A DNA stretch of 63,745 bases, counting the filler, from Collodictyon triciliatum (lineage: Eukaryota), in assembly GCA_043381765.1 (NCBI GenBank). It is 4 parts of 4 records of this genome, joined end to end, with 100 filler letters (N's around TTAATTAATTAA, not from the genome) between each part and the next. Parts side by side here need not be neighbours in the genome. Positions count along the whole stretch, not along the records: positions 1 to 26,488 come from JBHJMP010001468.1; positions 26,589 to 43,836 come from JBHJMP010001469.1; positions 43,937 to 61,161 come from JBHJMP010001470.1; positions 61,262 to 63,745 come from JBHJMP010001637.1. The stretch is one strand, 5' to 3'. The notes under the pieces were generated by a model. That model was not told the origin of the DNA. It was given only the letters and a program-made list of their open reading frames with translations, and made no database searches. The position numbers and the translations under genes were made by a program. Below, piece after piece: positions 8,200 to 63,509 of this stretch; the stretch's first letter is position 1, and every line of letters begins with the position of its first letter.

Positions 8200-9750
8200 T
8201 TTTTTCCACTTTATTCTATTCAAAGTGCAGCGAGGTTATGCCATACAAAGGGGCGGGATGGGAGCGCATGGCAGAGAGCAAACGCGAGTAGGAGAAGACA
8301 CTACCACGAAGCGGCTAAAGGAAAGAAATCAGTGATAGCGAGTTGGTCAGGCGGGCGACCCAACTGGTTGATTGGTTGCGTGGGTAGCAGGGGTTGGATA
8401 TGCTGTGGGAGATATCTTACGACACATTCCCACATCTCTCTTCGCTTGCGGTCAGAGTAGCGAAGAATACGAGCGTGTTTCAGCAGGCTGTTCAGGAAGC
8501 TGTATTGCACGAGGCTCTCCAGCCTGGATACATTGATTTCTCGTTCGGGTGAATCATTAAAGCGAGAGAATGCTCATACACTCCATAAGAACCACAGCAT
8601 ATGTCCCCTTGTGACTGTCCAGAGTATTCTAGAGTCGTGGGTCATTTGGTATTGTGCGCCAAAAAAAACAGGATGTCAGACGCGCTGAGACGGCTGGGAG
8701 CATAATCAAGCTCAGAGAGCATCTTGTGGGTAGATTCTGTCACTTTTTGAGCAAGAGAGCACTTCACAAATGTGTGTTCGATAAAGTCATCTCCACTATG
8801 GCATATTGTGCATTCTGGAGAGGTCGTTGCTGCATGGACTACGTGCGCACCTATCCACAGCTCTCTGTTGGAGATATTAAGAAGCAGGGCGCGGTGTTTC
8901 GGGAGTAACTGAGGTATACGGGCTTGCTTCCAGCTTTTGACTATCGGCGGGTCTATAATGCCTATGGTTTCGGCCCAGCGACTCATTTTCTACGGTTTGT
9001 AGGGATTCGGGCTGATGATTTTATATCGAAACAGCTTGGAATATGCCATGGCCCTCGAGAATTGCGGAGATTCGGGTGTAATGGACCGCCTTTGGTTCTT
9101 CAGGCGAAAGAAAAATGGCGACGGCGCTCCGTATGAGATGGGGCGTCGTGAGCGCCATTCCCGTTTGTTGTTCAGGACGGCTGTGGTTGGGGTTGCATTC
9201 GAGGAGTGAAATATCGTTGCATTTTTCGACGATGCAAAGCTCCCATCCTTTTGGAAAGCGACTTGTTGCAGGACGAAGGAGCTGTTTCCTTCTCTCGACT
9301 TGATGATACAGAAGCCTTTTGCTCTATCCCAGCAAATTTGGCCTGTACCCGCATGTAGTTGGGTAGACTCGCACATTTCACAGTTTTCATACAGAACCTT
9401 CCACCGCGCTAGTAGCGGCTCAGGATTATTTGGTGATGGTGACGGGATTCTGCTCTCACAGAGCTGTGCCTTGAAGTTCGGATATATGAGGTGATTAGAT
9501 GCCACATTCCACGCTGCCAAAATCCTTTCGGATGGGTAAGCATATCTGTCCACCGTCTCATCGTGAGCGATGTCCATGTAATACCAGGCGCTATGAGTCC
9601 CAGTCCTCCCTCCGTAGGTGGCTTAGAGAGCGTCTTGTTTTTGTATTTTTGATTATTCGTAGTGATGAAGTCGCGACTGATGTCTTACAGCTTCTTCAGC
9701 CTCTTGATATTCAGCAGAGTGCCTATAATATCGAAGAAAAATTTATTTAA
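8200..9750 (-). mobile_element. 5'-truncated, decayed non-LTR retrotransposon (L1/Tx1-like ORF2 C-terminal part, 3' UTR and A tail)
   Basis: Post-RT motif LSKPPTEGGLGLIAP (~9590-9635); zf-RVT-type CCHC finger CTICHSGDDFIEHTFVKC; WTVTRGHMLWFLW..FN tail motif; in-frame stops (8990, 8642) and frameshifts. The 3' end reads CTTTGAATAGAATAAAGTGGAAAAAA. No TSD found. Confidence 0.8.
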
Positions 9751-9944
9751 AAATCCTTTTTACCTGTGGTGGTAGGTGTAAAAAAAGATTCAAGATTTAT
9801 ACACGTCTGAGAGGAAAATTATCGGTGTTCTCTAAATGCTATTTCGCTATTCTTCTCTGCAAAAATATAATAGCAATTTATCCTATAATGAAACATTGTA
9901 GCTGAAATTATAGCTTCTTTAAGGCGAGTATGTTTTTTTGTATA

Positions 9945-9996
9945 AAATTTAGATTCATTGGGATCGAATAAAGGAATATATTAAATTTATTTTCAT
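9945..9996 (+). mobile_element. Micro-insertion of LINE 3' end (old copy)
   Basis: tgggatcgaataaaggaatatatt between aaatttagattcat (9945-9958) and aaatttattttcat (9983-9996), 12/14 match. Confidence 0.55.
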
Positions 9997-12900
9997 CGTT
10001 CTCAATTATGTTTGTATGCAATTATTGCCAGTCTATTTATCGCTATAAATCATATGTAATGATGTCTCTAACTTTTAAAATTATCAAAAGGACATGGAAA
10101 ATCAAAACAAGTGATATACAGTTGTTTGTGGATAGAGTTTGGAAAATCAGAAAATTAGTGAAATATTTCGCTTTATTCTTTTCTCTGATGATTTGCTTAA
10201 GTAAGATTAGAGGGCATTATCTTGATAAAAGTGTTTCTCATTTTTTCTCGATAGGCAGAGAAAACTTTTGTGTTAACGCCATTTCTCTCCAATGCTATTT
10301 TTATACTTTTTAAGATAGCTATGACCCCCCCCATATGTATGAAACCAGAAATAGGATTATGAATCCACTATTAAGTGCAACTATAGCATATGCTATCCAG
10401 TAGCTCCCTGGGGCCAGTTGTTGAACCAAGGCAGCAAAAAAGAAATATAGAGTAGTAGCCATGAATTAATTGATAGAGCGTCATCAGAACTGAGCAGATA
10501 TGGCTCGAATCTGTTCTGAAGAGTAATGGCTGACTAACATTGATAATTTAAAAAAATTTTAAACTATGTGCACACTTTTCTTCACAAAAATTGATAAGCT
10601 AGTTTTCAAAAAGAAACATACTAGGCGGTTTCCAACTTAATTTTAAAATTTAAAAAATTGTCCATGATTAATCTAAGAGTTCAAAAAATGACTCACTTGA
10701 ATCAGAACGAATATCACAAAATAAAGAATAGCTGGGATGTATACAGAACAACAAACGCGGTAAAACCAAACAGAATAGACTGAATCACTCGAAAAACTAC
10801 CCACCAGTCGTATCTCTGTATTGATAAAGAATATTTTTGGAAAATTTTTCAATGATATTCGATAAAAAAAATTGCAATAGTTACCTCTTCATATATTGCT
10901 GATATTCTATTTATTTGTATTTGACAAATAAGATCAAAATTTGACAGAGATAGGTCAAGCCCCCCTTCGTTTTCTTTGTTTGGTGTAGCATTTTCCGAAA
11001 GGTCGTTTGTTTCATCGCTCATGTGGTGGCTTGAAAATTTTGGGTTTCTTTTTGTTTGTTCCACGTGAATTTTATTATGTCGTCTGTCTTCTTGATTTAC
11101 ACTCGTTAGCTCAACATCCCTCGGTGTTACCTAGTTTAGAGTTGTCACATGTCTGAAAATAATCATACGTTTTTAATTTTTAAAAAGCAATAATACCCTT
11201 ATGATCGATATTGTCACCATAGAGCGATTTAACTCCTTGATATATCGAGACCTCTTCACTATTAGCCATACTAGTGACGTATACAATATCATGTATATGA
11301 GCCCTGGTAAGGCGGCAGCTAGCATCATCGCATAATCATGCGTTAATGGGCTGCATTGGACCCAAGGATAAGCGTTCACAAACCAAGATTCGAAACTTTT
11401 ATCATATAAAGTACATCCAAAAGTACTGATAACATCTTGTGTTACAGAAAAGTAGGTTGCCTCAAGAAAGATAAACATAACTGCGACTACCTAAATGAAT
11501 TCAAGTTCAATTTTAAACAATCAATCGGACAATATTTAGATGTATCATCGATAAAAGCGAACCTTCTTTACATTTTTCTTATCTTTCTTTGATTTGAATG
11601 TGCGAAATGCGAGGAATCCAATAAAAACAATGCACGGGATTCTACTTGAATTCAATAGAGATGTTATATGTGGATGATTTCCAACCATTCATTCTAAACT
11701 AGAAAGCCTCAAAGAAGCGATATTACCAATAAATCTTTCTGTGACACTAAAATCGGGCAGGGTAATAACACCTCCAAGTACTTGCAGAATTTGAGTGTAA
11801 AACAAAAAAATGTCTAGAGAGGCTGTTTCGTAGAAAATAATTGGCATATAAGACTTTTTTGAAACAAAATTAATTATATATTCTTTTTAATTTGTTAAAA
11901 TTTTACCTGATTGGCCCACCCCTTCAGAATTATTAGATCCATTTTGATTAACTGTCCCATCTTCCTGGGTATCTTCTCCTATCCATGCAACAAACACTTG
12001 CCAAAGTATGCCGATAGACAAAACAAACATAAATACAGCAATTCTAAAGAAAGAATAGTCCGCATTACATTCAACACAGACCCTGCTTTCAAATGCAAAG
12101 CCTTTCTCACAGGTAGAACACCCCTTCCAGTAGACCCATTTTTCCAGTCAAAGTCTTTTTCCCCACTCTTGATTGATATCCTTTGATACATATCTGTGCC
12201 TATTGAGTATTGACAAACCTCTGGATTGACACACAAAATCATATCCTGTATTTCGATTACAGAAGGCGTAAAAAAGCAATTTTTCAAGGAAACTCCATTA
12301 GTGCATTCACACTCTATGGGGCATCGACCACATTTATTTGAAAAATCCAAAGTATCCAGGCAAATATTTGCAAAATATGTACTCATAATATATTGGATTC
12401 AACCAAACTTCCATTCTTTGAGGCTCTGATTATGGATATGATAGAAGGGCTAATGTACGAATCTGATAAATTTTCCAAATTATACGGATCACCATATTGC
12501 ATAAATTTAGGAATGAACGATGCATTTTCATGAGTCATGTAAGTGTCTATGAGACCAAGATATTCCATTTTCGAAAAAAGATTGAAAGATTCTGGAATAA
12601 TTCTGATGATTGGATTTCCAGTCATATGGAGTCGATTCCATTTGAGCAAACTTGTCAGGGGTTCCAACCTTAGATATATTGTTGTTTTTCAAACTTACGG
12701 TATTCAAATTACGAATATTGTCGAAAATTCTCCGATTCAATTCTCCATTTAGGTAATTGTCATCCAAAATCAAGGTTTCGTACGTATAATTGTACACATC
12801 AGAGGCTAGTACGACAAATTCGCCTATATCACCCGCAAAAGAATTATTTCTCAAATCTATTGAAACAAGATTTTCAATATTCCAGAACTTATTCGGTTAG

Positions 12901-13340
12901 CTACCCGAAATGTTGTTGTGAGGTATAGAAATGGAATTTAACTTGTAAAGTTTCCCAAAATAAGAGAGAATTAACTCGCTTAAATTGTTTCTCGACAACT
13001 CTATGTACTCTAAAGAGGAAATATCCCAATCATCAGGAATCGATCCAGTAATTAAATTTTCACTAAAATCCAATTTCTTCAAATTTTTCAGCTTCAACCT
13101 GGGAAGCGAACCCGAAAAACTATTCCTGTAGATGAATATCTCAATCAAGCTTTCACACAGTTCGAAGTCAGGAATTTTTCCCTCTAAATTATTATCATAT
13201 GAAGAAAACGATTCCAGATATCCCAAGTTTCTGAAAGATGGCACATTTCCTGATAAAATGATGCATTTTTCGATTTTAAAAGATTTTAGTAGACAAGGCG
13301 TAAAAATCATGCACACAATTTGGTATTTGATATGAAAAAC

Positions 13341-15505
13341 CTGCTAGATTATTTCTGGATATATCCAGTTTCTCTAAATACAAATTTCCGTCAAAGTCAG
13401 GTATGCTTCCTATCAGTTGATAAATTCAGTCAATAATCAAAGAAAAATAAAAATTATGAAATAAACCAGTAAGATTTATTTTGTTGTCAACAAAAATATC
13501 TTCCACCAGAAGAATATAGCTAAAATTTGGTATTGTTCCTAAATATTGGATTAAATATGAAGTAAATAGTAAGCTGCATTTTTTTTATAATTTGACCAAC
13601 ATATGCAAAATAAATTAAGGAAAATGAAATCAAGCGAACCATATAGCCTGTTACTTGAAAATTTCATGAAATACAAATAGGAAAGGGAATCAAAATCTGG
13701 GATAGAACCTAATATATAAAATATGTTGAGAACGAGATGATGAACATTTTAAAGATAATATTTTTAAATTTCGAAAGATATGTGTTAAAAAATTTTCTTG
13801 AAAGTACAAATAAACCTTCCAAGTAGTTACTGGATAGAGTCATTACGATTATGTATGGGGTATTACCGAAGTTGGGTATCGTAACTTTTAGCAAGTGGGT
13901 TACTTTTTGAAATTGTGTGTTTCTTAGAGAATGGTTTATATTGAATTTTGATGAATAAAAGTACCGTTCAACATATTATTGTATACGTAAATTCCAAAAA
14001 ATTGGGGAGTGTTGGTAAAGTCCTGTATGGTTCCCTTGAAGGAGGGACTCTTTCAAAGTTGAAAAATTACGCAAATGAATTAAAATAATATACGACAAAA
14101 CTCCTCCTACCGCTGATGAAATTACCAGATAACCAAAGTCTATTCATATTATAGAAATTGGTAAAGTCGGGTATTGTTCCTGTAAGATTTAGAAATAATA
14201 AATAATAATTTTCATCGGTGATAAATTTCCTGAATCCAGAGACAAATACCTGTTATCATGTTGCTTTCAATTGAATTTTTCATTAATTTTGGTACGTAGG
14301 TAAAGTCTGGGATGGTTCCTATTTTTTTGATTTCATGCATGGATGGCAATTTTTTGATTTACTTTCAAATTATTATCATAGTTTTATGCTTCCGTGTATA
14401 ATATAATTTTTGCCTGTGATTGTATTGGCGGAAAGATAGACCGTATCAAGTAGAGGAATTTTTGAAAAATTAGTAATAGTCCCTGCAATAAACATTATGA
14501 AGATATTTAAACAATAATGGCAGAAAATAAAACCATTTTAATTTTAATTGTCACTCTACGTATTTAAATGATGTTCAAGTTACCATTTAAATCGTTCAAT
14601 AACAGGTTAAGAGTTTTCAATATAGAGATATACTTGAAGTCTGGAATACTTCCTAGAAGATTGAAGCACACGATAGGCAAGAAAAATTATATTCTTTCAT
14701 TATGACTGAATTTACTTCTATCTTATTAATGTGGGTCATCAATATTGATAGATTTATTTGCAAGCCAATATATGTTACTAAAAACCTGATAATCTGTTTC
14801 GGTGCATATATTCCAGAAACAATAGGTATATTTCCAAAATCTGGGACGGAGCCTAAAGAAAAATAGACAAACATATAAATTATATAGACACAGTAGTACA
14901 TCTGAAAGGTACTCAAATTAATCTGATAAAAATAATTCAACCAAAAATTCTGGTCTAATTGCAATAACCTGTAAGTCTATTCAAATAAAAATAAATAATC
15001 TCAATTTTTGGTATACTCAAAAAGTTAGGGACTGTTCCTATTGCACATGAATTATAAGGATTTTTAAGGCTAAATTATAAAAACTATAATAAATAATTTT
15101 AAAATTGAAGTCAAAACATCGTAAGCCCTTTCTTCATTATATAATACCAGATATCTTATTATCAAGTGTTGGTATCCAATACAGAAAAGGAGCATATCTG
15201 AAGTTCGGTATGGTTCCTATTTTTTTGGATTTTAAAGACCAAAATTTCATTTGTGTTCAAATAATTTGAGTAATTTATGAAATTGAATATTAGACAAACC
15301 AGATATTTGGTTGTTGGGTGAATCAAGCAGAATCATGCTCGGTAGATTTTTAAAATTAGGGATTTATCTATTTTATAATTTTATTTAGTATTAAGGTTTT
15401 TTATTTTGAATAAAGTTATAAACCTGAAATACTGACCAATGATGTATGTTTGGAAAATATGCAATATTTGTAGATTCGGGAGATTGAAAAAGTCTGGAAT
15501 ATCTC
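13341..15505 (-). repeat. Array of about 14 single-LRR exons (mostly 69 nt, phase 1-1)
   Basis: Exons starting near 13341, 13467 (72 nt), 13640, 13816, 13965, 14111, 14250, 14414 (GC donor), 14584, 14787, 14969, 15148, 15300 and 15424, e.g. GSIPDFDSLSYLYFMKFSSNRLY. About 10 remain in frame. Confidence 0.85.
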
Positions 15506-15997: not shown

Positions 15998-16045
15998 TTA
16001 TGATCAAATTTTTCCTTTATTCTATTCAAAAAAATTATGATCGAA
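15998..16045 (-). mobile_element. Micro-insertion of LINE 3' end with TSD, intronic
   Basis: tttttcctttattctattcaaaaaaa between ttatgatcaaa (15998-16008) and ttatgatcgaa (16035-16045). Confidence 0.7.
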
Positions 16046-18355: not shown

Positions 18356-18404
18356 GGAGAATTTAGTTGCTCTTCGAAAAATAAAAAATAAATAGAGCGA
18401 AATC

Positions 18405-19587: not shown

Positions 19588-26463
<6,876 letters not shown>

Positions 26464-26488
26464 AAAATACAATTTGCCCTTACCTTTC

Positions 26489-26588: not shown

Positions 26589-26693
26589 TTCTTCTTTCTA
26601 TTCTTCTTTCTATTCTTCTTTCTATTCTTCTTTCTATTCTTCTTTCTATTCTTCTTTCTATTCTTCTTTCTATTCTTCTTTCTATTCTTCTTT
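26589..26693. repeat. 12-mer tandem repeat (TTCTTCTTTCTA)n
   Basis: Read directly at the contig edge. Confidence 0.9.
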
Positions 26694-26766
26694 CTTATTC
26701 GATTTCTATCTTTTCTTATTCCGGCAATATGGAAGACATAAAGGGAGATACCATTCTGGACCAGCC

Positions 26767-31378
<4,612 letters not shown>

Positions 31379-38649: not shown

Positions 38650-38650
38650 T

Positions 38651-38710
38651 ATCTTTGACGCGAAAAGCTTTGAATCGAATAAAGAGAGGAGTGATATTTG
38701 ACGCGAAAAG
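38651..38710 (+). mobile_element. Micro-insertion of LINE 3' end with TSD
   Basis: ctttgaatcgaataaagagaggagtg between atctttgacgcgaaaag (38651-38667) and atatttgacgcgaaaag (38694-38710), 16/17 match. Confidence 0.85.
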
Positions 38711-39231
38711 GAAAAGGAAAAGGAAAAGGAAAAGGAATAGAAAAACAAAACAACAAAACAACAAACTAACAAACCAACAGAAGAGCAGAAGAACACAAGA
38801 ACAGAAGAAAAGGAAAAAAGACGAAAAGGAGATAAGGAAAAGGGGGAAAGGGGAAAGATCCACCAATACAAGGACGTGCAATAGCTCTTTGGAGTTGTTG
38901 CCCATGAAAAAAGGACTTAAAGATGGCCCGATAATGGTTTGTGATCAGAGCTGGCTCTGGCTGTGGGTACGTAGAAGACGGAGAGGAAAGGGAAAGGGAA
39001 AGGAAAGGGCGATCCTGTCCTTTGGGCGCGGTGTCCACAGTCGCAGATTTATCGAAAGACATCCCACACATGCCATTCCCAAATTCTGCAAAGAATCGAA
39101 AAGAAAAGCCGCCAGACTAAATTGCCCACGGGCTGGGTTCGTCCGGCACAAGAAAATACAGCAAGGCAGATGAGAAGGCTGTAAGTAGATTGTAAGACAA
39201 TGCACATTTAATTGTGTGGGTGGGTGGGGGG

Positions 39232-39308
39232 TGATAAAATGGTATTTTTTTTTTTCCTTTATTCGATTCAAAGTGTAGCGAGGTTATGCCTGATGATAAA
39301 ATGGTATT
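39232..39308 (-). mobile_element. Micro-insertion of LINE 3' end (~47 bp) with perfect TSD
   Basis: T-run plus cctttattcgattcaaagtgtagcgaggttatgcc, nearly identical to LINE end 8209-8242, between two copies of tgataaaatggtatt (39232-39246, 39294-39308). Confidence 0.9.
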
Positions 39309-39551
39309 GATTGTTTGTGAACCAGTTGCTCCATATAGTTCCTTCGCCATGTTTCCAGCAGTACTCCTAGTTCTGACAACATCTGTTTCGCCGACCATTT
39401 AGCCCTCTAGTCGAACATCCAGCACGGTGACCTGTGGAGTCTAGTACCATATGTCCCCATGTTGCACGGAATTATATACAAAAATAACTAAATATCTGGT
39501 AACAGCTCTCCCATCTTCTTTTATAAAGTATATATATTTGGTTTTGTACTT

Positions 39552-39616
39552 ATTTCAATCTGCGCGAGATATTTTTTTTCCTTTATTCGATTCAAAGATT
39601 TCAATTTGCGCGAGAT
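39552..39616 (-). mobile_element. Micro-insertion of LINE 3' end (27 bp) with TSD
   Basis: attttttttcctttattcgattcaaag between atttcaatctgcgcgagat (39552-39570) and atttcaatttgcgcgagat (39598-39616), 18/19 match. Confidence 0.9.
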
Positions 39617-40431
39617 GAATGCTCTGGTCATGGTTTGCTGGCCACGTAAATATCATCAGGTATAGCTAAGTGCTATAGGCTAAAGTTTGGCTATTTAAAC
39701 ATCAGCACAAACTAATTCGCGATAGAAACATAAATTGAGAGTGGACATGGTCATTATGGCAGACATAAAAAAGCTACTGGCATCATGCAATTCTGCATGA
39801 GATATCGCGTTTATTATGGACAACAGGTACATAATGCGTAGTCATACGAGAACGAATCTTTTGATTGGGTTTTTTTTTTACAAAGGTATAGTGATGCTTG
39901 AAAAGATGGAGAAGACCCGTTTCTTTGCTATTATAGTTGATTTTTGAAGTTACCTCCGATGTCAAGAGTAAGAAGGAAGTCTAAAACATCCCCGTGTCTA
40001 AATTTTTCACATCTCTCACTTTGGTTTATTGAAAGAAAGTAGATACGCTAAAAAATGAAATAATCTCAATTGGCACTGATCAATTCCACTTATGATTGTT
40101 GTCTACCCTAATCTTTTGAATACAGATTATCAATATCGTGGGTAACTTCAACAAAATAATTACAATAATCCTATTTTGCTCTCGAGTTTCATCTCCTTCT
40201 GTTCTTAGCTGCATGACTGCCACTCCTTAATCTATGGAATTTATCGATATATTTAAATACTATTTAGCAGCCCCTTGGAATTATCAGGTATTCAAGCAGG
40301 ATGAAGAAAAGAGTTTGTGGTATTAATAAATAAAAATAATGCATTTCCCTTTATGGTAAGAATTATACATTAAAAAAAAAAGGGGGGGTTGGGGGGTTAT
40401 GATTTTTTCATTTATAATAGAACATGATATC

Positions 40432-43155: not shown

Positions 43156-43836
43156 TGGATTGTGCTTGCCGTGGTTGGGATTCTCGTCTGCGCTGAAGTT
43201 GCGCGTGGGCAATGTACCGTACCCAGCGAGCAACCCTTCGGTCTTGTGCTGAACCCTGACCTCTCTGTCTCCATCTGCCTTGGCTCCACCATCAATCCGC
43301 AACCCCCTAGCATGGTGGCCTCTATCAACCAATGGCTCCCGGAGTACAACAACCCAGCCCCGGAGATAACCAGCACGAGCAATAATCCCAATCTCGTCTT
43401 CACGTCCACCAGTACCATCTACATCACCTTCATTACCGAAGGGGCTGGATACCGTAATTCGCTTGGATATTTCGTGTTCGATGCCAACCAGAACATCATC
43501 TCCAAGAACGTTGTTTTTCCGGATGCATCCAATGACCCAGCCACCCTCCAGACTGGTCAAACAGTCAAGATAGGGCCGTTCTCAGCCGGGCGAAGAGTTG
43601 GTTTCTTCCTGATTGCGAATGGGTTTACCAACAAGTTCTGGTCCACCGACCTATCCGGCTCTACCTATTACTCTATCTGGACAAAGAACCCAGACGGGAA
43701 GCAGCACATAGCAATGTTCACCGAAAGTACCTCTGGAAAAGTCCTCATCGGCTTTGAGGACTTGTACAACCTAGGAGATGGAGATTATAACGACGCCGTC
43801 TTCTTCGTTACAGTCGACGGTTCCATCGACAACAAC
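43156..43836 (+). CDS. Secreted DUF4114-domain protein, partial (first exon not located; cut by spacer)
   Basis: Signal-like WIVLAVVGILVCAEVARG; FITEGAGYRNSLGYF; VGFFLIANG; IGFEDL..GDGDYNDAVF, typical of DUF4114 / LruC-associated domains. Long intron-free stretch. Confidence 0.75.
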
Positions 43837-43936
43837 NNNNNNNNNNNNNNNNNNNNNNNNNNNNNNNNNNNNNNNNNNNNTTAATTAATTAANNNNNNNN
43901 NNNNNNNNNNNNNNNNNNNNNNNNNNNNNNNNNNNN
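43837..43936. other. Artificial scaffold spacer
   Basis: N44-TTAATTAATTAA-N44. Confidence 0.95.
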
Positions 43937-45395: not shown

Positions 45396-45461
45396 AAATT
45401 GATTCAAACCGGTGGTCCTGCACAAAAGTTGAAAGGAAGAATAAAAAAAAATTGATTCAAA
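45396..45461 (+). mobile_element. 40-bp A-tailed insertion with perfect 13-bp TSD (different 3'-end family)
   Basis: ccggtggtcctgcacaaaagttgaaaggaagaataaaaaa between two copies of aaattgattcaaa (45396-45408, 45449-45461). Confidence 0.7.
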
Positions 45462-46406
45462 TCGAAGGGCCACGCCACCGATGTACCATATGTGTTGTAA
45501 TATCTTTAAAGAATTGAATAATCAAATATGTAATATTTATTGTTTTTTCTTTTTGTTTTTGAAAAAATAAGGCATGTTCATCAAAAGAAATTATGATTAG
45601 GATTTCAAGCTTTGCTCAGTATGTTTTTGCAAGGAAATACATACAAACCACGCGTTTGACCTGCGGGAAACTCCAACTGCTGTGTGGACTCCAACAGAGA
45701 GAATCGGTAAATATCAAAGAAATTGACTAGAATGCGTTCGTATACAAAGATTTTGCGTTTCGTATTTGTAAGTTAGAATAAACTGGATGAACCATATCAG
45801 AAGAACATAGCCTTACCAATATATATTGATGCATATTAATGGTGATTCTCAGTCACGATAATACACGAGCCATCGCCACAAATGATATCAGAACTGCAAG
45901 TATTTATATCATTTGATGTGATTCTCTTTCGTTCTGATTGTTGTTATCCTCCCCATGCCATGACTATTGGCTGTCGGGCAATCCCCTCGGACATAACTAT
46001 ATGCGTATGCAGAACAGCTGCGCATATATTCATCACTTATTGCTATTGATAGAGTAGAACCAAGACATAACTGCCGATGCCTCCCCTTATCCTACACTTG
46101 TCAATAAAAACACACACCCCTGCCAGATGCAGCAGATGCAAAGGCCTCGAGATACAGGAAGAAAGCAAGCTGCGCCCATGAACTTCCACATATGGAATTT
46201 TTCCACAACAGCGCATGACCACAGTCCCGCTAAGCCATAGCCCCTCACCGCTACGGAGTCGCTCGCGCATCTGCATCAACTTGCCTCTGGCTGTCGTGTC
46301 TATCGTGTACCCTATATATCAACGCCATTCCAAGGTACGCCGACTTATATAAGCGCAGTTGGTCGCCAAATATCTGCTCGGCTCGTGCTGGCAATTTTCA
46401 TATTAA

Positions 46407-47129
<723 letters not shown>

Positions 47130-53611: not shown

Positions 53612-54389
53612 ACTAGTGGCTGTCAATATATTCGTCTAGGTTGACCTGTGAGGCGAAGGATTAAGCTTTGTGAATTGTGTGAGGCTGGCAAGTCGTGAGA
53701 GTGAAACGGGCTGTGCAGGAAAACTCTCATGCTTTACAAAACAGGCTTCCTGGGCTGGAAAGAAGCAGCAGAGTAGGGGCAGGAGGGGTAAGACTAAAGG
53801 AAACAAGAAAGAGATGATCTTTTGTTGAGGATGCAGTCATGGGAAGAAAGACATCAACACTAAGAGCAGACAGCAGCTGTGCTATTGTTATGTTATGTTT
53901 GATTATCTCGCAATCTGCGTATAGAGTATGGCTGCACTCTAGCGTGAAGTGAGGTTGTCAGACTTCAAACTGAGGAACCCCGAGGGTCAGTGCTCCGAAC
54001 AACTGGGACAGTCCTCTTATTGGGGAAAAAAAGAAGGCAGAAGGGGAGGAAGAAAAAGAAGAAGAAAGAGGCCGTCTGTGCATATTCATGATGCAAGTGG
54101 ACAAAAAGCGAGTAGGTGGCAGTGGGAAACACAGAGGCAGCGATCGGCGGGAAAGAAGGTGGCCCAACAGGAGATTGCACAGGCCCCTCGCAGCTTGTGG
54201 AGACCGGCGCTTTTCTCAAAGGCTTTAACTCACAGCTGCGCAAATACCTCGCCAAATGGCTCCCCAATGCAAGAGAATGAAGAAGAAAAGACTTAAAGAG
54301 GTCAAGAGACAAAAGGCTTTGAAGAGAAAAAGAAAAAGAGGCTGTGGGTCTCTGTTTTTCCTTTCAGAATTCCTGCCTATTATTTTTCT

Positions 54390-54394
54390 TTTTT

Positions 54395-54460
<66 letters not shown>
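54390..54460. repeat. Poly-T tract
   Basis: About 60 consecutive T. Confidence 0.95.
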
Positions 54461-55095
54461 CCTTGTCGGCAGCGTTTTCCTGCTTCTCCTAAACTCTTGC
54501 GTGTTTGTCTCTGCGTCTTTCCCGACCTCCACCTCCTCTCTCATCGCTGCTCGGATCGCCACGAGTGTGGGCGTCTTCTTCAAGTATGTCGGACTCATCG
54601 TGCCGCTCCCCGCACCTGACACGACGCTCGCTTAAAAGCATTGTGCACAGGAATGGGCGCGTCTGCAAGCGAAGGGACATTTCTAGTCCGTTTTGGGTGG
54701 GACACAATCGAGGACACAGGTGAACACCTGCCTCGCCACAGAAGGGCAGCCACATGATTAATCCTAATCTGGAATTTCACTTCCAAGGGCGGTGCGCGGC
54801 GAGTCGGTCTAAGTAGCAGGGAGTGGCATGGGGCGCTGCGTATCTCTGAGCACGTGGTCAGCAGGGCCTCGCCTGCGCGCTATACCGCCAGGATACAAGT
54901 TGGGCAACAATCGCGTTTTGATGTTTGAGTTTGTGTTTGATGTTTTATTCATGGTTTTTTTTTCTTCTTTTTTTGATATGCAGTATAGTACGGAAGACGT
55001 TGACAAGTGTATGGACGAGGTGGCTTGTGGGGAGAATTGGGGAAGCCAGCGACAGAATGCAGACGGTGCGGGAGCGTGTGGTGAGCGTCGCCTGT

Positions 55096-57673
55096 CTAGA
55101 ACATTCCGCCCATGCCGCCCATACCGCCACCCATGGGCATCGGGGGCTCCTTGTCCTCCTTGGGCAGCTCGACGACGGCGGCCTCGGCGGTGATCATCAG
55201 GGAGCTGACACTGCACGACAAGCAAGCAACGTAAGTGGGTGTGTGAGTAGACACGGGATTGTGGTCGGCAAAACAAAAGGGCGCAGCAGCAGACGCCACA
55301 CACGCGGGAAAGCAGGGCGAGAGAGGATACTGTAAATGGTATGGGGTGGTGGTGGGGCGGCACCTTGTGGCGTCGAGCAGGGCGGTGCGGACGACCTTTG
55401 TGGGGTCGATGATGCCGGCCTTGAACATGTCGACGTACTCGTCGGTCTGGGCGTTGTAGCCGAGGGAGGCGGTGAGCTCCTCCACCTTGCCGACGACGAC
55501 GGCGCCCTCGACCCCGGCGTTGGAGGCGATGGTTGCGATGGGCACGCGCAGGGCGTTCTGCACGATGCGGATGCCGACGTCCTGGGACATGTTGGGGCCC
55601 TTTGTGTCCCGCAGGATGCGCGAGGCCCTCAGCAGCGCCACGCCACCTCCGGGCACAATGCCCTCCTCGACGGCGGCGCGTGTGGCGCACAGGGCGTCTG
55701 TGACGCGGTCCTTCTTCTCGTTCATCTCCACCTCCGAGGCTCCGCCCACCTTCAGCACCGCCACGCCGTGCGACAGCTTCGCCAGGCGCTCCTGCAGCTT
55801 CTCGCGCTCGTACTCGCTGGTCGTCTGTCCAATCAGGTCCCGCAGCAGCCCGCAGCGCTCCTCGATGGCCTTGCGGCCCCCGGCGCCTTCCATGATGATC
55901 GTGTCGTCCTTGGAGATCGAGATCTTCTTGGCGCTGCCCAGGATCTCGTCCAGATTCGGGTTGTCGGGGTGGTCCGGGTTGTTGGGGTCGCCCAGGCCGC
56001 CTTCCAGCTTCAGTCCCAGCTCGTCGCTCACCAGCTGTGAATTGTGTGCGAGGGCAAGTTAGTCGTGGGGCGAGACAAACACCTTATCTGTGGTTAGGCC
56101 GTGTGAATGTTTGGGTGTGCGTACCTGGCCGCCAGTGAGGATGGCAAGGTCCTCCAGTTGCGACTTGCGGTTGTCGCCAAAGCCAGGGGCCTTGACAGCA
56201 GCCACACGCACGATGCCGCGCAGCTTGTTGATGATCAGTGTGTTGAGTGCATCGCCCTCCACATCCTCGGCCACGATGACGAGCGGCTTGTTGATGCGCA
56301 CGATGTGGTTGAGAACTGGTGCCAGGTGCATGAAGGATGTCACCTTCTTGTCCACAAGCAACAACTTGGCGTCCTCAAACTCGGTCTTCTGAGTCTTGAC
56401 GTCGGTCAGGAAGTGGCGCGAAATGTAACCGCGGTCAAACTTCATGCCTTCGATCACCTCCAGTTCGTTGACGAGGGTCTTGCCTTCCTGTAGTGGGGGT
56501 TGGTGTGTTGTGGTGAGTGGTAAGCAACATTCTCGAGGGAGGGAGGGGGGTGGGTGGGTCACACGAAAGAGAGGCTGACATAGAGGATTGACGGAAGACA
56601 GCTACTTACTGCGACAGTGATGACGCCTTCCTTGCCGACCTTCTCCATGGCACTGGCGATGAGGTCTCCAATTTCAGCGTCAGAGTTTGCCGAGATGGTG
56701 GCAACCTTATGCGTTCAGATGGGTTATTTTAACTAAGAGCCTCAACGAGTTGCTACACCAGCCTCCAATGGTTCAAACTGTGCCTCCACATAGAATCCAA
56801 AGGGGTTTAAGGCTGATCATACCTGAGCAATCTCCTCACGGGTGGTGACGGTCTTCGTCATTTGACGGAGCTGGTCGACGACTTTCTGGACGGCGAAGTT
56901 CATGCCGCGGCGAATGTCCTCGGGGTTCATTCCGGCAGCGACAGCCTTGAAACCCTCCTGGCAGAGAGCCTGGGTAAGAACGGTAGCTGTGGTCGTTCCG
57001 TCTCCGGCAATGTCGTTGGTCTTCGAGGCGACCTGGCGAACAAGCTGGGCACCGAGGTTCTCATACTTGTCCTTCAGCTCGATATGCTTGGCGACTGTCA
57101 CACCGTCCTTGGTGATCTTTGGAGCTCCGAACGATTGTTCTAGGATGACATTTCTGCCCTGTGGGTGAGCGAGGTCACGTGAGTGAGTATAAGCCCAGGG
57201 CACATAGAGACCCTCTCAGGGCGGAGGTGGGTTAGCGGGCAGCGGACTTACCTTGGGCCCTAGTGTGACCTTGACTGCATTAGCGAGCTTGTCAACTCCT
57301 GCCAGCATTCCCTGGCGGGCGGCCATTCCGAAGCGGACGTCCTTGGCGGCGTAGAATCTCGCATTCTTCCGGAGCGTGGACTAAGAATCGTATTAAAGAA
57401 AGTTGTGGGTTAATACTTGTCCCCCGTAGGCGTGCTCTGTCACTCGGAATAGTTTCAGAGGGTGTTGGGAATATGGACTTCGTTTGTCGAAATCCTTCAG
57501 TGTAACTATGACTATATTGAACCACCATATGGTTTTGTCTGGCCAAAGTTTTTCATCACGAGGGCAATACGGGCATCGAGCACCGGGGTAAAAGTTTGTT
57601 TCTCAGTGTTCATAAAATGGTGACTTACAGTAAGTGGAGACGCCTTGTGCAGCATCGAACCAGAGCCCAGCAT
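55096..57673 (-). CDS. HSP60: Mitochondrial chaperonin Hsp60 (cpn60)
   Basis: Presequence ...[83 protein letters not shown]-terminal tail. Confidence 0.97.
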
Positions 57674-58491: not shown

Positions 58492-60287
58492 ATGCTATGT
58501 CCAAAAACAAAATTCATTCACCGGAAATACAGGAGGAGGATTGGGTTTAGACATGCAATCTCTGTTACCGCAGTGTTTTTCTTCTTTTCCTTCGCTATGA
58601 CGGTGGTTAAAATTCTCAATATCATTTCGGTGCCTCTCGAATGTCCACCAACCCAAACATTTGTTTTAAATAATCAAGTATCCAAAGGACAAGATTTTGA
58701 GTATGGACCCAGGATCGATAACGTATTCAATTATTTTTAATTATTCTCTCGTCGACTTCACAATGGGTTTGATACGTGTCTATAATTATGGTTCAGCAAA
58801 ACCTTATGAATCTTTGTAACAGAACCAAATGGATAAAAGTATCGAAGCCTACATAGCGTTCCATAACACAGCTTTGCGGAGAGAAAACATATCGGACCTG
58901 CGATTTGTTGTTTATGTGGAGAATATTGGTGGAATAGGGAATCACTTCCTACCCATGGTCTCGACTTTAGCGTATGCAATGCTGACAAATAGGATATACC
59001 TACAGCACAAGGTTTGAACATTTTTTTTTAAATTTTTGAAGCATTACCCTCCCTTCCTTTGAATCGAATAAAGGATTTTTTTGAAGTATTCTTTTGAATG
59101 GTTCCATCTTAAGAAGATAAGATATTTCCAAAAAAAACAACAACAACAACTATCTAACCCAAGCAGTGTCTTATTATCTCAATGGACATGAAAGATTGCT
59201 TTCTACTCATCTTTTAGATTCATATTTTTTTTCAAAAGGTCAACGTGTCCGGGGCACCTATGTCCAGTCTATTCAAATCATCATTTAATACAGTTGAGTT
59301 AGAAGATGTTGCCAATAAGCTTAGGTGTGAAAGTTATATCTCGTCTGGGTGTCGTTTTCTTATCTTAGTTCTGCTTTACCCTTCTATGCATTCATTTTTT
59401 CTCGTAAATATAAAAAATAATTTTTTTTGTCATAAATAGACATAATACTAAATTTTTGATGTTGACTTTATCAATTTTTCAGAAGTTCACCACAAGAGAT
59501 TTTAATGGATTCGAATACACTTCACATATCACTGAGGCATAAATATTCAAACACCAGTTGGGAATTGGCGCATTGCCAGAATACTCTCAACGATACACAC
59601 CAATTCATCAAGTATTTTTCAAACCAGTACTTTCTTCCAACAATTACTCACAATCCACACTTCAAAGAGAAAGTGATGGAGTTATTTGGAGATAATTATT
59701 ATGAAGGCAACGTTGATTTGTATGGCCCCCTGTCAAGAATCTTATTTCAGCCCCTACCGTATGTTAAAAGTCTAGTGGACAACTTTGTTCGAAATCACTT
59801 TCGTAAGCACATGATTGGTGTTCAATTACGAAAAGAGTTTCTGAATTTCCAAGGATGGGATATATTATGGCTAAATGCAATTCAAAAAATTCGAGCACTC
59901 CAGTATCCGCAAGAAATCAATCCAAATGACATAGGAATCTTTCTAGCTAGTGACCATAATATCACCTTAATCGAGCAATTGTGGCCATCAGAGCACATTG
60001 TTTCGATAAAGAAACCACCAGGAAGGTCAAAAAAGGCACAGTTATATGCGGTGTTAGATATCCTCTTACTCTCGAAAACCAATAGCTTGATAATCACCGA
60101 ACATTCAACATTTGGAAGTAGTGCTGCAGGATTTGGTTCTATTACGCCTCTTGCTATGACAAGACAAGGGATGTGCAGGATATATCTAAATTCACAGCCT
60201 CATTGCCACTATTGTGAGTTTGTCAAAAAAACATCATGCTTTCATCCTTCTTACTGGTACTCCTTGGATAACATCATCGAAGGATAA
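58492..60287 (+). CDS. Type II membrane fucosyltransferase, GT37 (xyloglucan FUT)-like
   Basis: N-terminal basic stretch plus TM; GGIGNH..MVSTLAYAMLTNR; SNQYFLP; IGVQLR; FLASD; AVLDILLLSKTNSLIITEHSTFGSSAAGFG, matching the alpha-1,2/1,6/O-FucT superfamily motifs I-III. Confidence 0.75.
59033..59090 (+). mobile_element. Micro-insertion of LINE 3' end with TSD, intronic
   Basis: accctcccttcctttgaatcgaataaaggatt between tttttgaagcatt (59033-59045) and tttttgaagtatt (59078-59090). Confidence 0.8.
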
Positions 60288-60796: not shown

Positions 60797-61044
60797 CTCT
60801 TTTTGCCTCTTTGGTGCATGATTCCGTTGCGTCAGATTAGGATTGAACCTTTTTTTCCCTCGTGTTTCATTCATTCGCTTTCCCTGCGATCAAACACCCA
60901 TTAAACACCTTGCCTCCGCAAATAACCAGCTCGAAGAACAACCATCGCCCGGCTGGACACAGTCCCCGCGTTGCGGTCTTTGAACTTGGTGTTAGACTCT
61001 GAATTTTTTTTGGCTTTAGCATAAACAAAAAACAAAAAAACAAA

Positions 61045-61161
61045 ACAAAACAAAAAAAAACCAAAAACCAATAAAACCAATAAAACCAATAAAACCAATA
61101 AAACCAATAAAACCAATAAAACCAATAAAACCAATAAAACCAATAAAACCAATAAAACCAA
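61045..61161. repeat. (AAAACCAAT)n 9-mer repeat at contig edge
   Basis: Read directly. Confidence 0.9.
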
Positions 61162-61261
61162 NNNNNNNNNNNNNNNNNNNNNNNNNNNNNNNNNNNNNNN
61201 NNNNNTTAATTAATTAANNNNNNNNNNNNNNNNNNNNNNNNNNNNNNNNNNNNNNNNNNNN
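61162..61261. other. Artificial scaffold spacer
   Basis: N44-TTAATTAATTAA-N44. Confidence 0.95.
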
Positions 61262-61385
61262 TTGTTTTATTGTTTTATTGTTTTATTGTTTTATTGTTTT
61301 ATTGTTTTATTGTTTTATTGTTTTATTGTTTTATTGTTTTATTGTTTTATTGTTTTATTGTTTTATTGTTTATTCGACTCAAAGT
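61262..61385 (-). repeat. (TTTTATTG)n array abutting a LINE 3'-end micro-copy
   Basis: Minus strand reads CTTTGAGTCGAATAAA-(CAATAAAA)n. Confidence 0.8.
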
Positions 61386-61961
61386 TTATTATTCTTTATT
61401 ATTCTTTTCTGTCCTTTTTCTTGCAAAGTCATATGCATTTTAAAATTATGTGAGTGTTAGCAATTCAATGATAAGCATGGTAGTATCACATCGCCACGCG
61501 TGATACCATATACCTATTTTTCCTTCTTTTTTATTCCTTTTTTTTTTTGAGATTTGATAATAAACACCATACCTCAACATACCAATATGTAATTCCTCAA
61601 GAAAAAGGTTCATCCAATCGAAATAGTAAACGCCATAGCACAACTACCGGATTTTTTTTAAAAAAAAAAAAACCTTGCAGAAAACTTGCGAGAAGAGAAA
61701 GCACCTGAAGTACTGATAACATGCTAATCTCTTACATAAACAATAATAAATCATGCGAATCTGACTTGCAGGAAGTAAAATTATGTGTGTTTATGCCATT
61801 ATTTGTAAACGAAAGGAATAGGAAATGGTAGTAAACTCCATTTAATATGAACATATTATGTAACCGTGCTCTCATCTTAATTCTTTTTATGAAAGAGGAT
61901 TTTCATGAAACCCACTCTGTAAAAATAAAAAAAGAGAACCTCCGAATCCAAGAAAGGAGCG

Positions 61962-63509
61962 ATGCCACCAGAGAAAGGGTTATCATCTCATAGATACTTC
62001 ACCAGGTCCAAGATTGAGAGCTATCGAGGGGCAGGTCTGTGGTGAAAGTGTTTTAGCTCAAAATATCCCCCTCTCCTTAAGCCTTTTTGGTTGGCTATCG
62101 GCATCTTCTGATTTTGACTATTACCTCGTGCAGCATCTACTTATTGAACAGTTTTCGCAGCTGCTGATTATGTTAAGATAAATTTGTTTTCCAGGTATAT
62201 TGCCATACACAATCCACGAAAACAAAGTTGTTTTTTTACTGGGACAAGAACTTCGCAGAGTGGGCTCCAGAAACATTCTAACTTACTGCTGGAGTGACTT
62301 TGGAGGACAGCGCGAAGCGATGGATGATGTACGTAGTGTGAAAAAAAATTGAAAAAAAAAGAGGAAGAAGAAATCCACTGAGATTTATGGACGGGAATCG
62401 ATAATCATATTTTTATGACATATGTTGTTATTCTAAAATATTATACATGGTATTTTAAAAAATATCATATAGGATGATTTCATATTGACAGCTGCTCGAG
62501 AATTCAGCGAAGAAACATTTGGCTTGTTCACAGGAAGTGGCATGAATGAAGAGACGGTGCAACTGTCCATCAACCACTTTGTAAAAGTTATTAAAGGAAG
62601 AGAAGGTTGCCGGGGTTTTTTAATCGACGTCCTTCTTTCTTTTTCCTTGCAGTTATCATGTATTTTTACGATTTCTGATGTGATATCTGCTTAAAAAATA
62701 GTGCAGCCCTTTATCACATTTGGCAAAAATAATCATACTTATCATTGTAATCCGATTTTTTTCCTTATTCGGTTCAAAGAATTATAATCCGATGTTAATG
62801 TGCATAATGTAGGCATACATGTTTTTAACAACAACGGGTACAAGATGATTCTAGTCCCAACCATTTACATCGACCCGTTTTTCTTGAAGGTTGATGTTTT
62901 ATTGTTGTTGTTATTCTTGCTTGGATAAAATATTGTGGGTTTACGTATGTGCATTTCGTTGAGGCCATTTCTATCATAACTCTTCATCTTTTCCTTGCGA
63001 CAAGAGTAGGTTGCTGCTCAATCAAAACATTTGATCACTTCCTATGAAAAGCGAGACCTTACCTGGTTCAATGCGTCTCAACTGCTGGCTTCGCTCAACA
63101 GATACAAAAAGAAACAAAGTCAAGTTCGTGTACTGAAAATAGATGATTTGCTTTTCTTTATAAAACTTGAAATGTTATCTGAATAAATACCAAAGGAATG
63201 GAAATGAATATTCATGGGTTTAATCAATCCTCTTTGCTGGTTTTCTGCGCATCAGTTTATTTGAGATTGATAGATGCAGTTATGGGTATCTGTCTTTTTC
63301 TTCCTTTTTTTTTTCTATGTTGACTTTACACATGCATATATATATTCTATTAGGAACCAAGACGTGGCTGGAAGCCCTTCAAGGTATTCGCCACGAATGT
63401 TTGGCGTTCCTTTGAGTGCATCGAAGAAACGATGCAGCTGTTCCCCAGATTTAGATACACCTTGCTGGATAATATCGCCGAGTTCGCTGCTGTAATCTCA
63501 TACGATTGA
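61962..63509 (+). CDS. Nudix hydrolase, multi-exon
   Basis: Spliced MPPEKG...YRGAG|ILPYT..FLLGQE...WSDFGGQREAMDD|DDFILTAAREFSEETFG (Nudix box GX5EX7REUXEEXG-like), later EKRDLTWF and LFPRF; stop TGA at 63507-63509. Confidence 0.8.
62744..62793 (-). mobile_element. Micro-insertion of LINE 3' end with TSD, intronic
   Basis: ttttttccttattcggttcaaaga between attgtaatccgat (62744-62756) and attataatccgat (62781-62793). Confidence 0.8.

What the first reader, a model, noticed from the sequence alone, without database searches (positions are those of the whole stretch)
8200..62793. Dispersed family of ultra-short TSD-flanked retro-insertions made only of a LINE's last ~17-35 nt
Seen: the motif CTTTGAATCGAATAAAG plus a purine/A-rich tail recurs, exactly or with 1-3 changes, in both orientations at about 9960, 16010, 29152, 38668, 39250, 39575, 59055, 61370 and 62760. 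Seven of these nine sit between their own unique 11-19 bp direct repeats with 0-2 mismatches. The longest copy (39247-39293) matches about 34 nt of the 3' terminus of the L1/Tx1-like element at 8200-9750. All copies are intronic or intergenic. Established: unique TSDs plus a 3' tail are the hallmark of target-primed reverse transcription. Inference: this genome may carry thousands of 23-50 bp inserts (about one per 7 kb here), often breaking at nearly the same point (CTTTG). That would fit systematic abortion of reverse transcription (a host restriction or an RNA-structure block) or a dedicated tiny non-autonomous RNA template. Such elements are usually too short for standard repeat annotation.
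Basis: partly seen in the sequence, partly recalled or inferred. Interest (0 to 1): 0.85.

Follow-up and report, generated by a model that had tools for sequence, protein, structure and literature searches.

The report
Tiny LINE-tail retro-insertions with duplications
A protist genome window carries nine independent insertions, each only about 21-50 bases long, made from the last 17-35 bases of one jumping gene (a LINE) plus a short tail, which looks like an unusually sharp, very early stop in the copy-and-paste reaction.

Summary
The 17-mer CTTTGAATCGAATAAAG (up to 3 changes) occurs 10 times against 0.49 expected. One hit is the true 3' end of a decayed LINE of about 1.5 kb (8200 to about 9700, minus strand; zf-RVT domain). 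An independent metagenome contig (L013) is 96% identical to that LINE and ends at the same motif plus an A-run.

Five of the nine short copies have 13-19 bp target-site duplications. Only 13 of 900 AT-matched control positions score as well (binomial P about 7.5e-8). Two more are marginal, one is weak and one has none.

Lengths are peaked:
- five copies start at or within one base of the C of CTTTG
- three extend to about 25-35 nt
- none is detectably shorter
- none lies between 50 nt and 1.5 kb

These are target-primed reverse-transcription products of one L1/Tx1-like LINE. A preferred 5' end sits 17 nt from the tail. Folding gives no support for an RNA-structure block. Genome-wide abundance and empty sites could not be tested: no genome is held, and no contig bridges a site. 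I rate this a new variant of a known kind, of moderate interest.

The parts
8200..9700 (-). Decayed, 5'-truncated long copy of the source LINE. The 3' end is the motif at 8209-8225 plus the tail at 8200-8208. The 3' UTR is about 430 nt. The C-terminal ORF2 piece with zf-RVT lies at 8642-8989. One in-frame stop sits at 8990-8992.
   Evidence: Pfam zf-RVT, E 7.1e-07. 96% identical over about 1070 nt to metagenome contig L013, with the same 3' end. Distant relatives have Exo_endo_phos + RVT_1 + zf-RVT. The 5' limit is approximate, and no TSD was found.
38651..38710 (+). Ultra-short copy. TSDs at 38651-38667 and 38694-38710 (17 bp, 1 mismatch). The insert at 38668-38693 is the 17-mer plus a 9-nt purine-rich, non-A tail. 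The 5' end is exactly at CTTTG, with no microhomology to the LINE.
   Evidence: TSD score 14; 7 of 900 AT-matched controls reach it.
39232..39308 (-). Longest short copy. TSDs at 39294-39308 and 39232-39246 (15 bp, 0 mismatches). The insert at 39247-39293 has 3 extra nt, about 34-35 nt of LINE 3' end, then G and an A-run.
   Evidence: (D10).
39552..39616 (-). Ultra-short copy. TSDs at 39598-39616 and 39552-39570 (19 bp, 1 mismatch). The insert at 39571-39597 is the 17-mer plus G, A8 and T. The 5' end is exactly at CTTTG.
59033..59090 (+). Short copy. TSDs at 59033-59045 and 59078-59090 (13 bp, 1 mismatch). The insert at 59046-59077 has an 11-nt 5' extension that only loosely resembles the LINE (possibly another subfamily; it is shared with 29156), then the 17-mer and GA.
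62744..62793 (-). Ultra-short copy. TSDs at 62781-62793 and 62744-62756 (13 bp, 1 mismatch). The insert at 62757-62780 has 1 extra T, the 17-mer (2 changes) and an A-run.
15998..16045 (-). Ultra-short copy with a marginal TSD (11 bp, 1 mismatch; 16035-16045 and 15998-16008). The insert at 16009-16034 has TTT, the 17-mer (2 changes), then G and A5.
   Evidence: TSD score 8; 56 of 900 controls reach it.
9941..9989 (+). Diverged copy (14 of 17 bases match) with a marginal TSD (11 bp, 1 mismatch). The core is at 9957-9973.
29156..29172 (-). Copy (16 of 17 bases match) with no recognisable TSD. Its 5' extension resembles that of 59057. A 13-14 nt direct repeat begins right after the motif and recurs about 346 nt downstream, after an A-run. 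This may be a later insertion into its tail; it is unresolved.
61264..61384 (-). Copy (15 of 17 bases match; core 61368-61384) whose tail is an (AATAAAAC)n microsatellite at 61264-61367. The repeat unit resembles the end of the motif. The TSD is not assessable.
   Evidence: (D4).
45399..45464 (+). A different ultra-short A-tailed insert of 40 nt (45412-45451), between 13-bp TSDs with 1 mismatch. Its core is not alignable to this LINE's tail.
   Evidence: Found by a motif-blind scan for an A-run followed by a TSD; aligned.

Best explanation
The nine short copies are independent, dead-on-arrival insertions. They were made by target-primed reverse transcription (TPRT) from RNA of one L1/Tx1-like LINE family, which has an APE-type endonuclease, an RT and a C-terminal zf-RVT domain. 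One decayed copy of about 1.5 kb lies at 8200 to about 9700.

Shown:
- The 17-mer plus a short G/A-rich tail is the exact 3' terminus of long copies.
- Each short copy has its own flanks, and mostly its own 13-19 bp TSD.
- Lengths are peaked. Five copies begin at or within one base of the C of CTTTG (17 nt from the tail). Three reach about 25-35 nt. None is detectably shorter. None lies between 50 nt and 1.5 kb.

Inferred:
- The 17-mer plus tail is the module that the element's RT holds and primes on. This would be 'stringent'-type 3'-tail recognition.
- Its 5' edge is a protein-defined boundary. One possibility is that cDNA synthesis stops there, because the initiating complex fails to switch to processive elongation. 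The other is that the template RNA ends there, having been trimmed down to the RT-protected 3' fragment.
- The end is then joined without microhomology, sometimes with 1-3 extra T-rich nucleotides.
For: - Motif enrichment: 10 hits against 0.49 expected.
- TSD enrichment: 5 of 9 copies score 10 or more, against 13 of 900 AT-matched controls; P about 7.5e-8.
- A motif-blind scan for an A-run followed by a TSD finds 4 loci in the true geometry and 0 in the reversed-sequence control. Three of the 4 are this family.
- The motif is the 3' end of long copies. The window LINE and L013 are 96% identical over about 1070 nt, and both stop at the motif plus an A-run, after which the flanks differ.
- In runs X1, X3 and X6, 4, 2 and 9 contigs continue from position 39290 into LINE-body sequence, while the tail-side flanks all differ (table 7).
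- Length distribution: blastn and tblastx of the LINE against the window find no other fragment. All 6 AATAAAGGA hits and all 6 CGAATAAAG hits lie inside known copies, so there is no shorter class.
- The junctions at CTTTG in 38668, 39581 and 62763 share no base with the LINE's upstream CA.
- One X6 contig matches only as far as the 17-mer's 5' edge and then runs for 240 nt into unrelated sequence. This is another 17-nt-bounded copy at a different locus (table 7, place 39599).
- LINE class: the zf-RVT hit, and relatives with Exo_endo_phos + RVT_1 + zf-RVT.
- Strict 3'-tail recognition is established for many LINEs (PMC4176376, abstract) and occurs in some L1-clade lineages (PMC3472496, abstract and introduction).
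Against: - The sample is nine copies in one window. Even so, the TSDs abut it directly in 3 copies.
- No stem-loop is predicted in or next to the 17-mer, whereas known stringent tails are stem-loops.
- Copies shorter than about 9 nt, or tail-only inserts, cannot be detected. An even shorter class is therefore not excluded.
- Among the loose ends shown for the public runs, contigs that go on into the LINE body (15) outnumber those that end inside the last 43 nt (4). That table keeps only the best-supported ends, and one run may be RNA, so it gives no ratio.
- No empty site, no RNA species and no enzyme data are available.
- A 40-nt TSD-flanked A-tailed insert with an unrelated core (45412-45451) suggests ultra-short products are not tied to this motif alone. 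That fits a generally abortive RT better than a motif-specific footprint.
Confidence: 0.7

Rival explanations
1. Host-made template fragments. LINE RNA is cut or degraded 5' to 3' by host decay or RNAi. Only the RT-bound last 17-35 nt survive and are copied to their end (run-off). The micro-inserts would then be a fossil record of restricted retrotransposition. This overlaps the main reading but puts the cause in the host rather than in the RT.
For: The 5' end is sharp, with no microhomology and with extra T residues at 62763 and 16015. In human L1 such junction features go with full-length (run-off) rather than truncated inserts (PMC11702581, passages). The size distribution is bimodal with nothing between 50 nt and 1.5 kb. 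No shorter class is seen.
Against: There is no RNA evidence at all. The one possibly-RNA run is held as contigs, which cannot show RNA ends. It is unknown whether so short a template can be used.
Confidence: 0.25
2. A dedicated tiny non-autonomous retroposon (a 'nano-SINE') with its own source gene, which borrows the LINE's tail.
For: The 5' end recurs. 59057 and 29156 share a 5' extension (CCCTTC-like) that differs from the LINE sequence, hinting at a second source.
Against: 17 nt cannot carry a promoter. 39257 continues for about 17-18 nt into LINE-specific 3' UTR sequence. No longer non-LINE element with this tail exists in the window.
Confidence: 0.08
3. An RNA secondary structure just upstream of CTTTG blocks the RT.
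For: A small hairpin (8225-8246) has its 3' base at the C of CTTTG.
Against: That hairpin is only -1.9 kcal/mol with z +0.4. The 146-nt 3' end has z -1.0. The 17-mer is unstructured. There is no covariation (only two sequences) and no Rfam family.
Confidence: 0.05
4. Not mobile at all: a chance or regulatory motif, or remnants left after internal deletion of longer copies.
For: The motif contains AATAAA. Three copies lie within one intergenic stretch of 930 bp.
Against: The motif is enriched about 20-fold over shuffles. Unique TSDs abut the inserts directly. The tails vary, and the sequence is identical to the LINE terminus.
Confidence: 0.02

Closest known systems
5'-truncated ('dead-on-arrival') LINE copies made by TPRT, e.g. 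human L1
   Same: A 3' end plus A-tail between TSDs of about 13-19 bp, at independent loci. Most copies are truncated.
   Different: De novo human L1 inserts had a median of 712 bp, and truncated ones tended to use microhomology (PMC11702581, passages read). Here 9 of 10 copies are under 50 nt, with a peak at 17 nt, no intermediates and no microhomology at the peak.
Truncated RTE elements with simple-repeat tails in Lepidoptera
   Same: Only the 3' end is inserted between TSDs, the tails can be simple repeats, and the copies are easily mistaken for something else (PMC2887409, abstract and discussion passages). Copy 61368 has an (AATAAAAC)n tail.
   Different: Those fragments still include the end of the RT coding region and have 6-12 bp TSDs. 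These contain only the last 4-9% of a 3' UTR of about 430 nt. The paper's supplementary tables were closed and may list shorter cases.
Stringent-type LINE 3'-tail recognition (zebrafish ZfL2, eel UnaL2; some L1-clade plant and algal LINEs)
   Same: A conserved, element-specific 3' terminal sequence is kept by all copies. This implies the RT needs it (PMC4176376, abstract; PMC3472496, abstract and introduction).
   Different: Known tails are stem-loops shared with partner SINEs. No stem-loop is predicted here and no SINE partner was found in the window.
SINEs
   Same: Short, non-coding, LINE-dependent, with TSDs.
   Different: No promoter-bearing head. The size is 21-50 nt, and the copies are collinear with the LINE's own 3' UTR.

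Membership tests
Non-LTR retrotransposon (LINE), L1/Tx1-like group - the source element | Reverse transcriptase domain | tested here: inconclusive
   No RVT_1 hit in the five window ORFs scanned; the copy is 5'-truncated near the end of the RT. Distant full-length relatives of its C-terminal ORF (E 1.6e-05 to 4e-04) carry RVT_1.
Non-LTR retrotransposon (LINE), L1/Tx1-like group - the source element | APE-type endonuclease | tested here: inconclusive
   Absent from the truncated window copy. Present (Exo_endo_phos) in relatives P0129, P0130 and P0131. TSDs of 13-19 bp fit staggered nicking.
Non-LTR retrotransposon (LINE), L1/Tx1-like group - the source element | C-terminal zinc-knuckle (zf-RVT) after the RT | tested here: met
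   PF13966, E 7.1e-07, 30.2 bits against a cut-off of 27.5.
Non-LTR retrotransposon (LINE), L1/Tx1-like group - the source element | A-rich 3' tail and multi-copy dispersal | tested here: met
   The window copy and L013 end in A-runs. Many contigs with different flanks in three runs.
TPRT-derived insertion - the short copies | Unique target-site duplications directly flanking the insert | tested here: met
   5 of 9 are strong, 2 marginal, 1 weak and 1 has none. 13 of 900 AT-matched controls score as well.
TPRT-derived insertion - the short copies | Collinear with the 3' end of the template, with a tail at the 3' side | tested here: met
TPRT-derived insertion - the short copies | Empty (pre-insertion) site alleles | not testable with these tools
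   No contig in 4 runs bridges a site. No genome or population data are held.
SINE | Internal Pol III promoter or small-RNA-derived head | tested here: not met
   The inserts are 21-50 nt and consist only of LINE 3' UTR plus tail.
Stringent-type 3' tail | Conserved stem-loop in the tail | tested here: not met
   The 17-mer folds at 0 kcal/mol, and the 47-nt copy at -2.3 kcal/mol with z +0.35.
Stringent-type 3' tail | The RT requires its cognate tail | not testable with these tools
   Needs a retrotransposition or binding assay.

The most novel reading that the evidence does not exclude
The 17-nt motif plus a short A/purine tail is a discrete minimal retrotransposition unit, the smallest retroposon-like insert family described. 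It would arise because the LINE RNA is trimmed by host decay or silencing down to the footprint of the bound RT, which then copies it to its end. The genome would then hold thousands of such scars: a countable in vivo record of the RT's RNA footprint and of restricted retrotransposition events, invisible to standard repeat annotation.
Probability: 0.25. Interest if true: 0.7.

Novelty: new variant of a known kind. Interest (0 to 1): 0.5.

Why it matters
If the 17-nt peak holds genome-wide, three things follow. First, it gives a natural read-out of where TPRT fails, or where the template ends, right after initiation. That step is hard to observe in vivo. Second, it defines the minimal 3' module that an L1/Tx1-like RT uses. 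Third, it shows that LINE activity can leave many insertions too short for RepeatMasker-type annotation. Such insertions carry AATAAA and A-runs into promoters and introns, so retrotransposition rates and TE-derived sequence would be underestimated in such genomes.

Tried and rejected
- Whole-genome search: no genome is held.
- Earlier notes of this scan: none, either by place or by sequence.
- Metagenome scan with an 18-mer: 48 loci, of which 47 are chance matches in unrelated DNA and only L013 is a true copy.
- Viral collection: 1 locus. Prokaryote genomes: 4 loci. All are chance matches inside unrelated sequence.
- Public runs: only small shares of the stretch are held. Laying four runs gave no contig across any insertion site, so there is no filled-versus-empty test. 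Parts without cover mean nothing.
- RNA structure and ribozyme ideas: no significant fold, and no Rfam family.
- TSD of the long copy: none found.
- Long-range scan for an A-run followed by a TSD (up to 4 kb): 4 hits against 4 in the reversed control, which is noise level.
- Organism identity: the HSP60 exon is only about 50% identical to plant CPN60. I left it as an unidentified freshwater protist.
- A possible target preference (TSDs starting ATC in 38668, 39581 and 62763) was not borne out by the flanks of other copies in the runs (table 7).
- Literature: four full-text searches found no description of LINE-tail-only families of 17-50 nt. Subscription journals and the closed supplements were not covered.
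- A possible extra copy at 26695(-), next to an (AAAGAAGAATAG)n array, was rejected as ambiguous with the repeat itself.
Full report
**1. Observation**

The window is eukaryotic, with spliced genes, many microsatellites and 883 N. The 17-mer CTTTGAATCGAATAAAG, allowing up to 3 mismatches, occurs 10 times. Dinucleotide shuffles give 0.49 on average, and none of 100 reaches 10. Oriented on the motif strand, each copy is followed by G or A and usually a short A-run.

**2. Target-site duplications**

For each copy I searched for the best ungapped direct repeat. It had to end within 25 nt upstream of the core and start within 35 nt downstream. The score was length minus 3 per mismatch, with up to 2 mismatches. 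I compared the results with random positions in the same window.

| Copy | Score | TSD |
|---|---|---|
| 39581 | 16 | 19 bp, 1 mismatch |
| 39257 | 15 | 15 bp, 0 mismatches |
| 38668 | 14 | 17 bp, 1 mismatch |
| 59057 | 10 | 13 bp, 1 mismatch |
| 62763 | 10 | 13 bp, 1 mismatch (16 bp, 2 mismatches as scored) |
| 9957 | 8 | 11 bp, 1 mismatch |
| 16015 | 8 | 11 bp, 1 mismatch |
| 61368 | 7 | 10 bp, 1 mismatch |
| 29156 | 3 | none |

The long LINE's own 3' end scores 2, as expected, because its 5' end is far away.

Of 1500 unmatched controls, about 0.7% score 10 or more. Of 900 AT-matched controls, 13 score 10 or more and 56 score 8 or more. The chance of 5 or more of 9 reaching 10 is about 7.5e-8. 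The TSD sequences are complex, not A/T runs.

A motif-blind scan looked for an A-run of 6 or more whose next 12 nt recur, with up to 1 mismatch, within 150 nt upstream. It finds 4 loci among 207 A-runs in the true geometry and 0 in the reversed-sequence control. Three of the four are 39257, 39581 and 62763.

**3. The source element**

The minus strand of 8642-8989 encodes a C-terminal zf-RVT domain (PF13966, E 7.1e-07). A full-library search with this 115-aa piece gives 11 hits at E up to 1e-3. One is 95% identical. Three are proteins of 1226-1275 aa that match at their C-termini. These three carry Exo_endo_phos and RVT_1, and two of them also carry zf-RVT. That is the L1/Tx1-like ORF2 layout. 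The window copy itself is 5'-truncated and decayed, with one in-frame stop. It has no RVT_1 hit and no recognisable TSD.

An exact-pattern scan of metagenome contigs returned 48 loci. Forty-seven are chance matches. One, L013 (1157 nt), is a second copy of this LINE. It is 96% identical over about 1070 nt. It is open where the window copy has its stop. It ends at the same motif followed by G and an A-run, after which the two flanks are unrelated.

I laid four public runs on 37800-40300. Contigs that match the 43-nt tail copy at 39246-39290 continue beyond 39290 into sequence equal to the LINE body: 4 contigs in X1, 2 in X3 and 9 in X6. On the tail side every contig has a different flank (table 7). 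So the motif is the conserved 3' terminus of a multi-copy LINE.

Those runs are lake and freshwater metagenomes plus one coded organism. The host is probably a freshwater protist. I did not identify it.

**4. Size distribution**

blastn (word size 9) and tblastx of the LINE against the whole window find nothing beyond the 43-nt copy at 39250-39290 and a 24-nt match at 16009-16030.

The 5' ends, read against the LINE sequence, are as follows:
- 38668 and 39581 begin exactly at the C of CTTTG, directly after the TSD.
- 62763 does the same after one extra T.
- 16015 begins there after TTT, with its C changed to T.
- 61368 begins there, next to unrelated A-rich DNA.
- 59057 and 29156 carry about 8-11 further nt. 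These resemble each other (CCCTTC-like) more than they resemble this LINE copy.
- 39257 carries about 17-18 further nt of LINE 3' UTR, plus 3 extra nt.
- 9957 is diverged.

Every occurrence in the window of the terminal 9-mers AATAAAGGA (6 of 6) and CGAATAAAG (6 of 6) lies inside an already known copy. No class with only 9-16 nt of the tail exists here. The distribution is therefore: none detectable below about 14 nt, a peak at 17, a few up to 35, nothing from 50 nt to 1.5 kb, and one long copy.

A simple constant-rate fall-off of the RT would predict many shorter copies and some intermediate ones. One caveat is that the 17-mer was defined by what the copies share. But its 5' edge is set independently by the abutting TSDs in three copies.

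In run X6, one contig matches only up to the 5' edge of the 17-mer at the 39581 copy and then continues for 240 nt into non-LINE sequence. Two X6 contigs and one X1 contig leave the LINE sequence inside the last 43 nt (table 7). Micro-copies therefore exist at other loci too. That table keeps only the best-supported ends, so it gives no frequencies.

**5. Mechanism**

Shown: TSDs of 13-19 bp, a 3' tail, collinearity with the template's 3' end, and unique flanks. These are the hallmarks of TPRT.

The junctions at the 17-nt peak share no base with the LINE's upstream CA, and two carry extra T residues. In experimentally induced human L1 insertions, junctions with little or no microhomology marked full-length (run-off) copies. 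Truncated ones tended to show microhomology-mediated joining, and the median insert was 712 bp (PMC11702581, passages read). By analogy, which is an inference, the RT here either reaches a real RNA 5' end at CTTTG or stops there in a way that leaves a clean end.

An RNA-structure block is not supported:
- the 146-nt 3' end folds with z -1.0
- the only hairpin touching the breakpoint (8225-8246) is -1.9 kcal/mol with z +0.4
- the 17-mer is unstructured
- Rfam finds nothing

My preferred reading is that the 17-mer plus tail is the module the RT holds and primes on, and that its 5' edge is protein-defined. Cognate 3'-tail recognition is established for most LINEs (PMC4176376, abstract). It occurs in some L1-clade lineages of plants and green algae (PMC3472496, abstract and introduction).

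Two explanations remain open. One is that the initiating complex fails to become processive. The other is that host decay trims the RNA to the protected fragment. The 40-nt TSD-flanked, A-tailed insert at 45412-45451 has a core that cannot be aligned to this tail. This hints that very short products are a general habit of the RT acting in this genome. The (AATAAAAC)n array that replaces the tail of copy 61368 has a unit resembling the motif's end. That fits reiterative copying at initiation, as described for repeat-tailed LINEs such as RTE (PMC2887409, passages).

**6. What could not be tested**

- Genome-wide number. The window's 9 copies in about 62.9 kb of non-N sequence give roughly one per 7 kb. 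But three sit within 930 bp and three within 3.7 kb, so extrapolation is unsafe.
- Empty sites.
- Any RNA species.

Supplementary files of the papers were closed. Additional file 4 of PMC2887409 and the supplementary tables of PMC3472496 may list very short fragments or L1-tail SINEs that bear on novelty.

**7. Verdict**

The feature is real, and it is the work of a known mechanism. The unusual parts are the extreme shortness, the sharp preferred 5' end and the missing middle of the size range. Four full-text searches found no description of such a family. I rate it a new variant of a known kind, with interest 0.5. That score is limited by the small sample and by the absence of genome-wide and RNA data.

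Noticed in passing
45399-45464 (+): A 40-nt A-tailed insert between 13-bp direct repeats (1 mismatch). Its core does not align with the LINE tail. It may be another ultra-short retro-insertion from a different RNA.
   Followed up: partly
28796-29155 (-): A 13-14 nt direct repeat starts right after the motif of copy 29156 and recurs about 346 nt downstream, just after an A5 run. This may be a later insertion of about 332 nt into that copy's tail, which would explain its missing TSD. In the long-range scan such hits are at noise level.
   Followed up: partly
26589-26712: A (TTCTTCTTTCTA)n array next to an N gap ends in a TCGAATAAG-like stretch on the minus strand. It could be a microsatellite-tailed copy of the motif or just a degenerate repeat unit.
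   Followed up: partly
38651-39616: Three of the nine copies, in both orientations, lie within 930 bp of one intergenic stretch between two expressed, spliced genes. This suggests a local insertion preference.
   Followed up: no
37979-38094 and 40048-40163: Contigs of run X6 skip 116 nt at each place. The ends read CT..AC on the plus strand, so these are GT..AG introns of minus-strand genes. Organism A is about 97-98% identical to the window in these exons.
   Followed up: no
54809-57215 (-): A mitochondrial-type HSP60/CPN60 gene split by introns, about 50% identical to plant CPN60. A T-run of about 75 nt lies at 54380-54460.
   Followed up: partly
46407-46800 (+): A ubiquitin / ribosomal protein S27a fusion gene (Pfam ubiquitin, E 6e-32; Ribosomal_S27).
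   Followed up: partly
2257-6019 (-) and 11979-13343 (-): Paralogous leucine-rich-repeat, cysteine-rich receptor-like genes (LRR_8, LRR_4). The LINE fragment and copy 9957 lie between them.
   Followed up: partly
43156-43839 (+): An ORF with a DUF4114 domain (E 1.2e-16) that runs into an N gap.
   Followed up: no
61028-61162 and 61264-61367: Two different 8-9 nt microsatellites, (AAAACCAAT)n and (GTTTTATT)n, either side of an N gap. The second is the tail of copy 61368.
   Followed up: no
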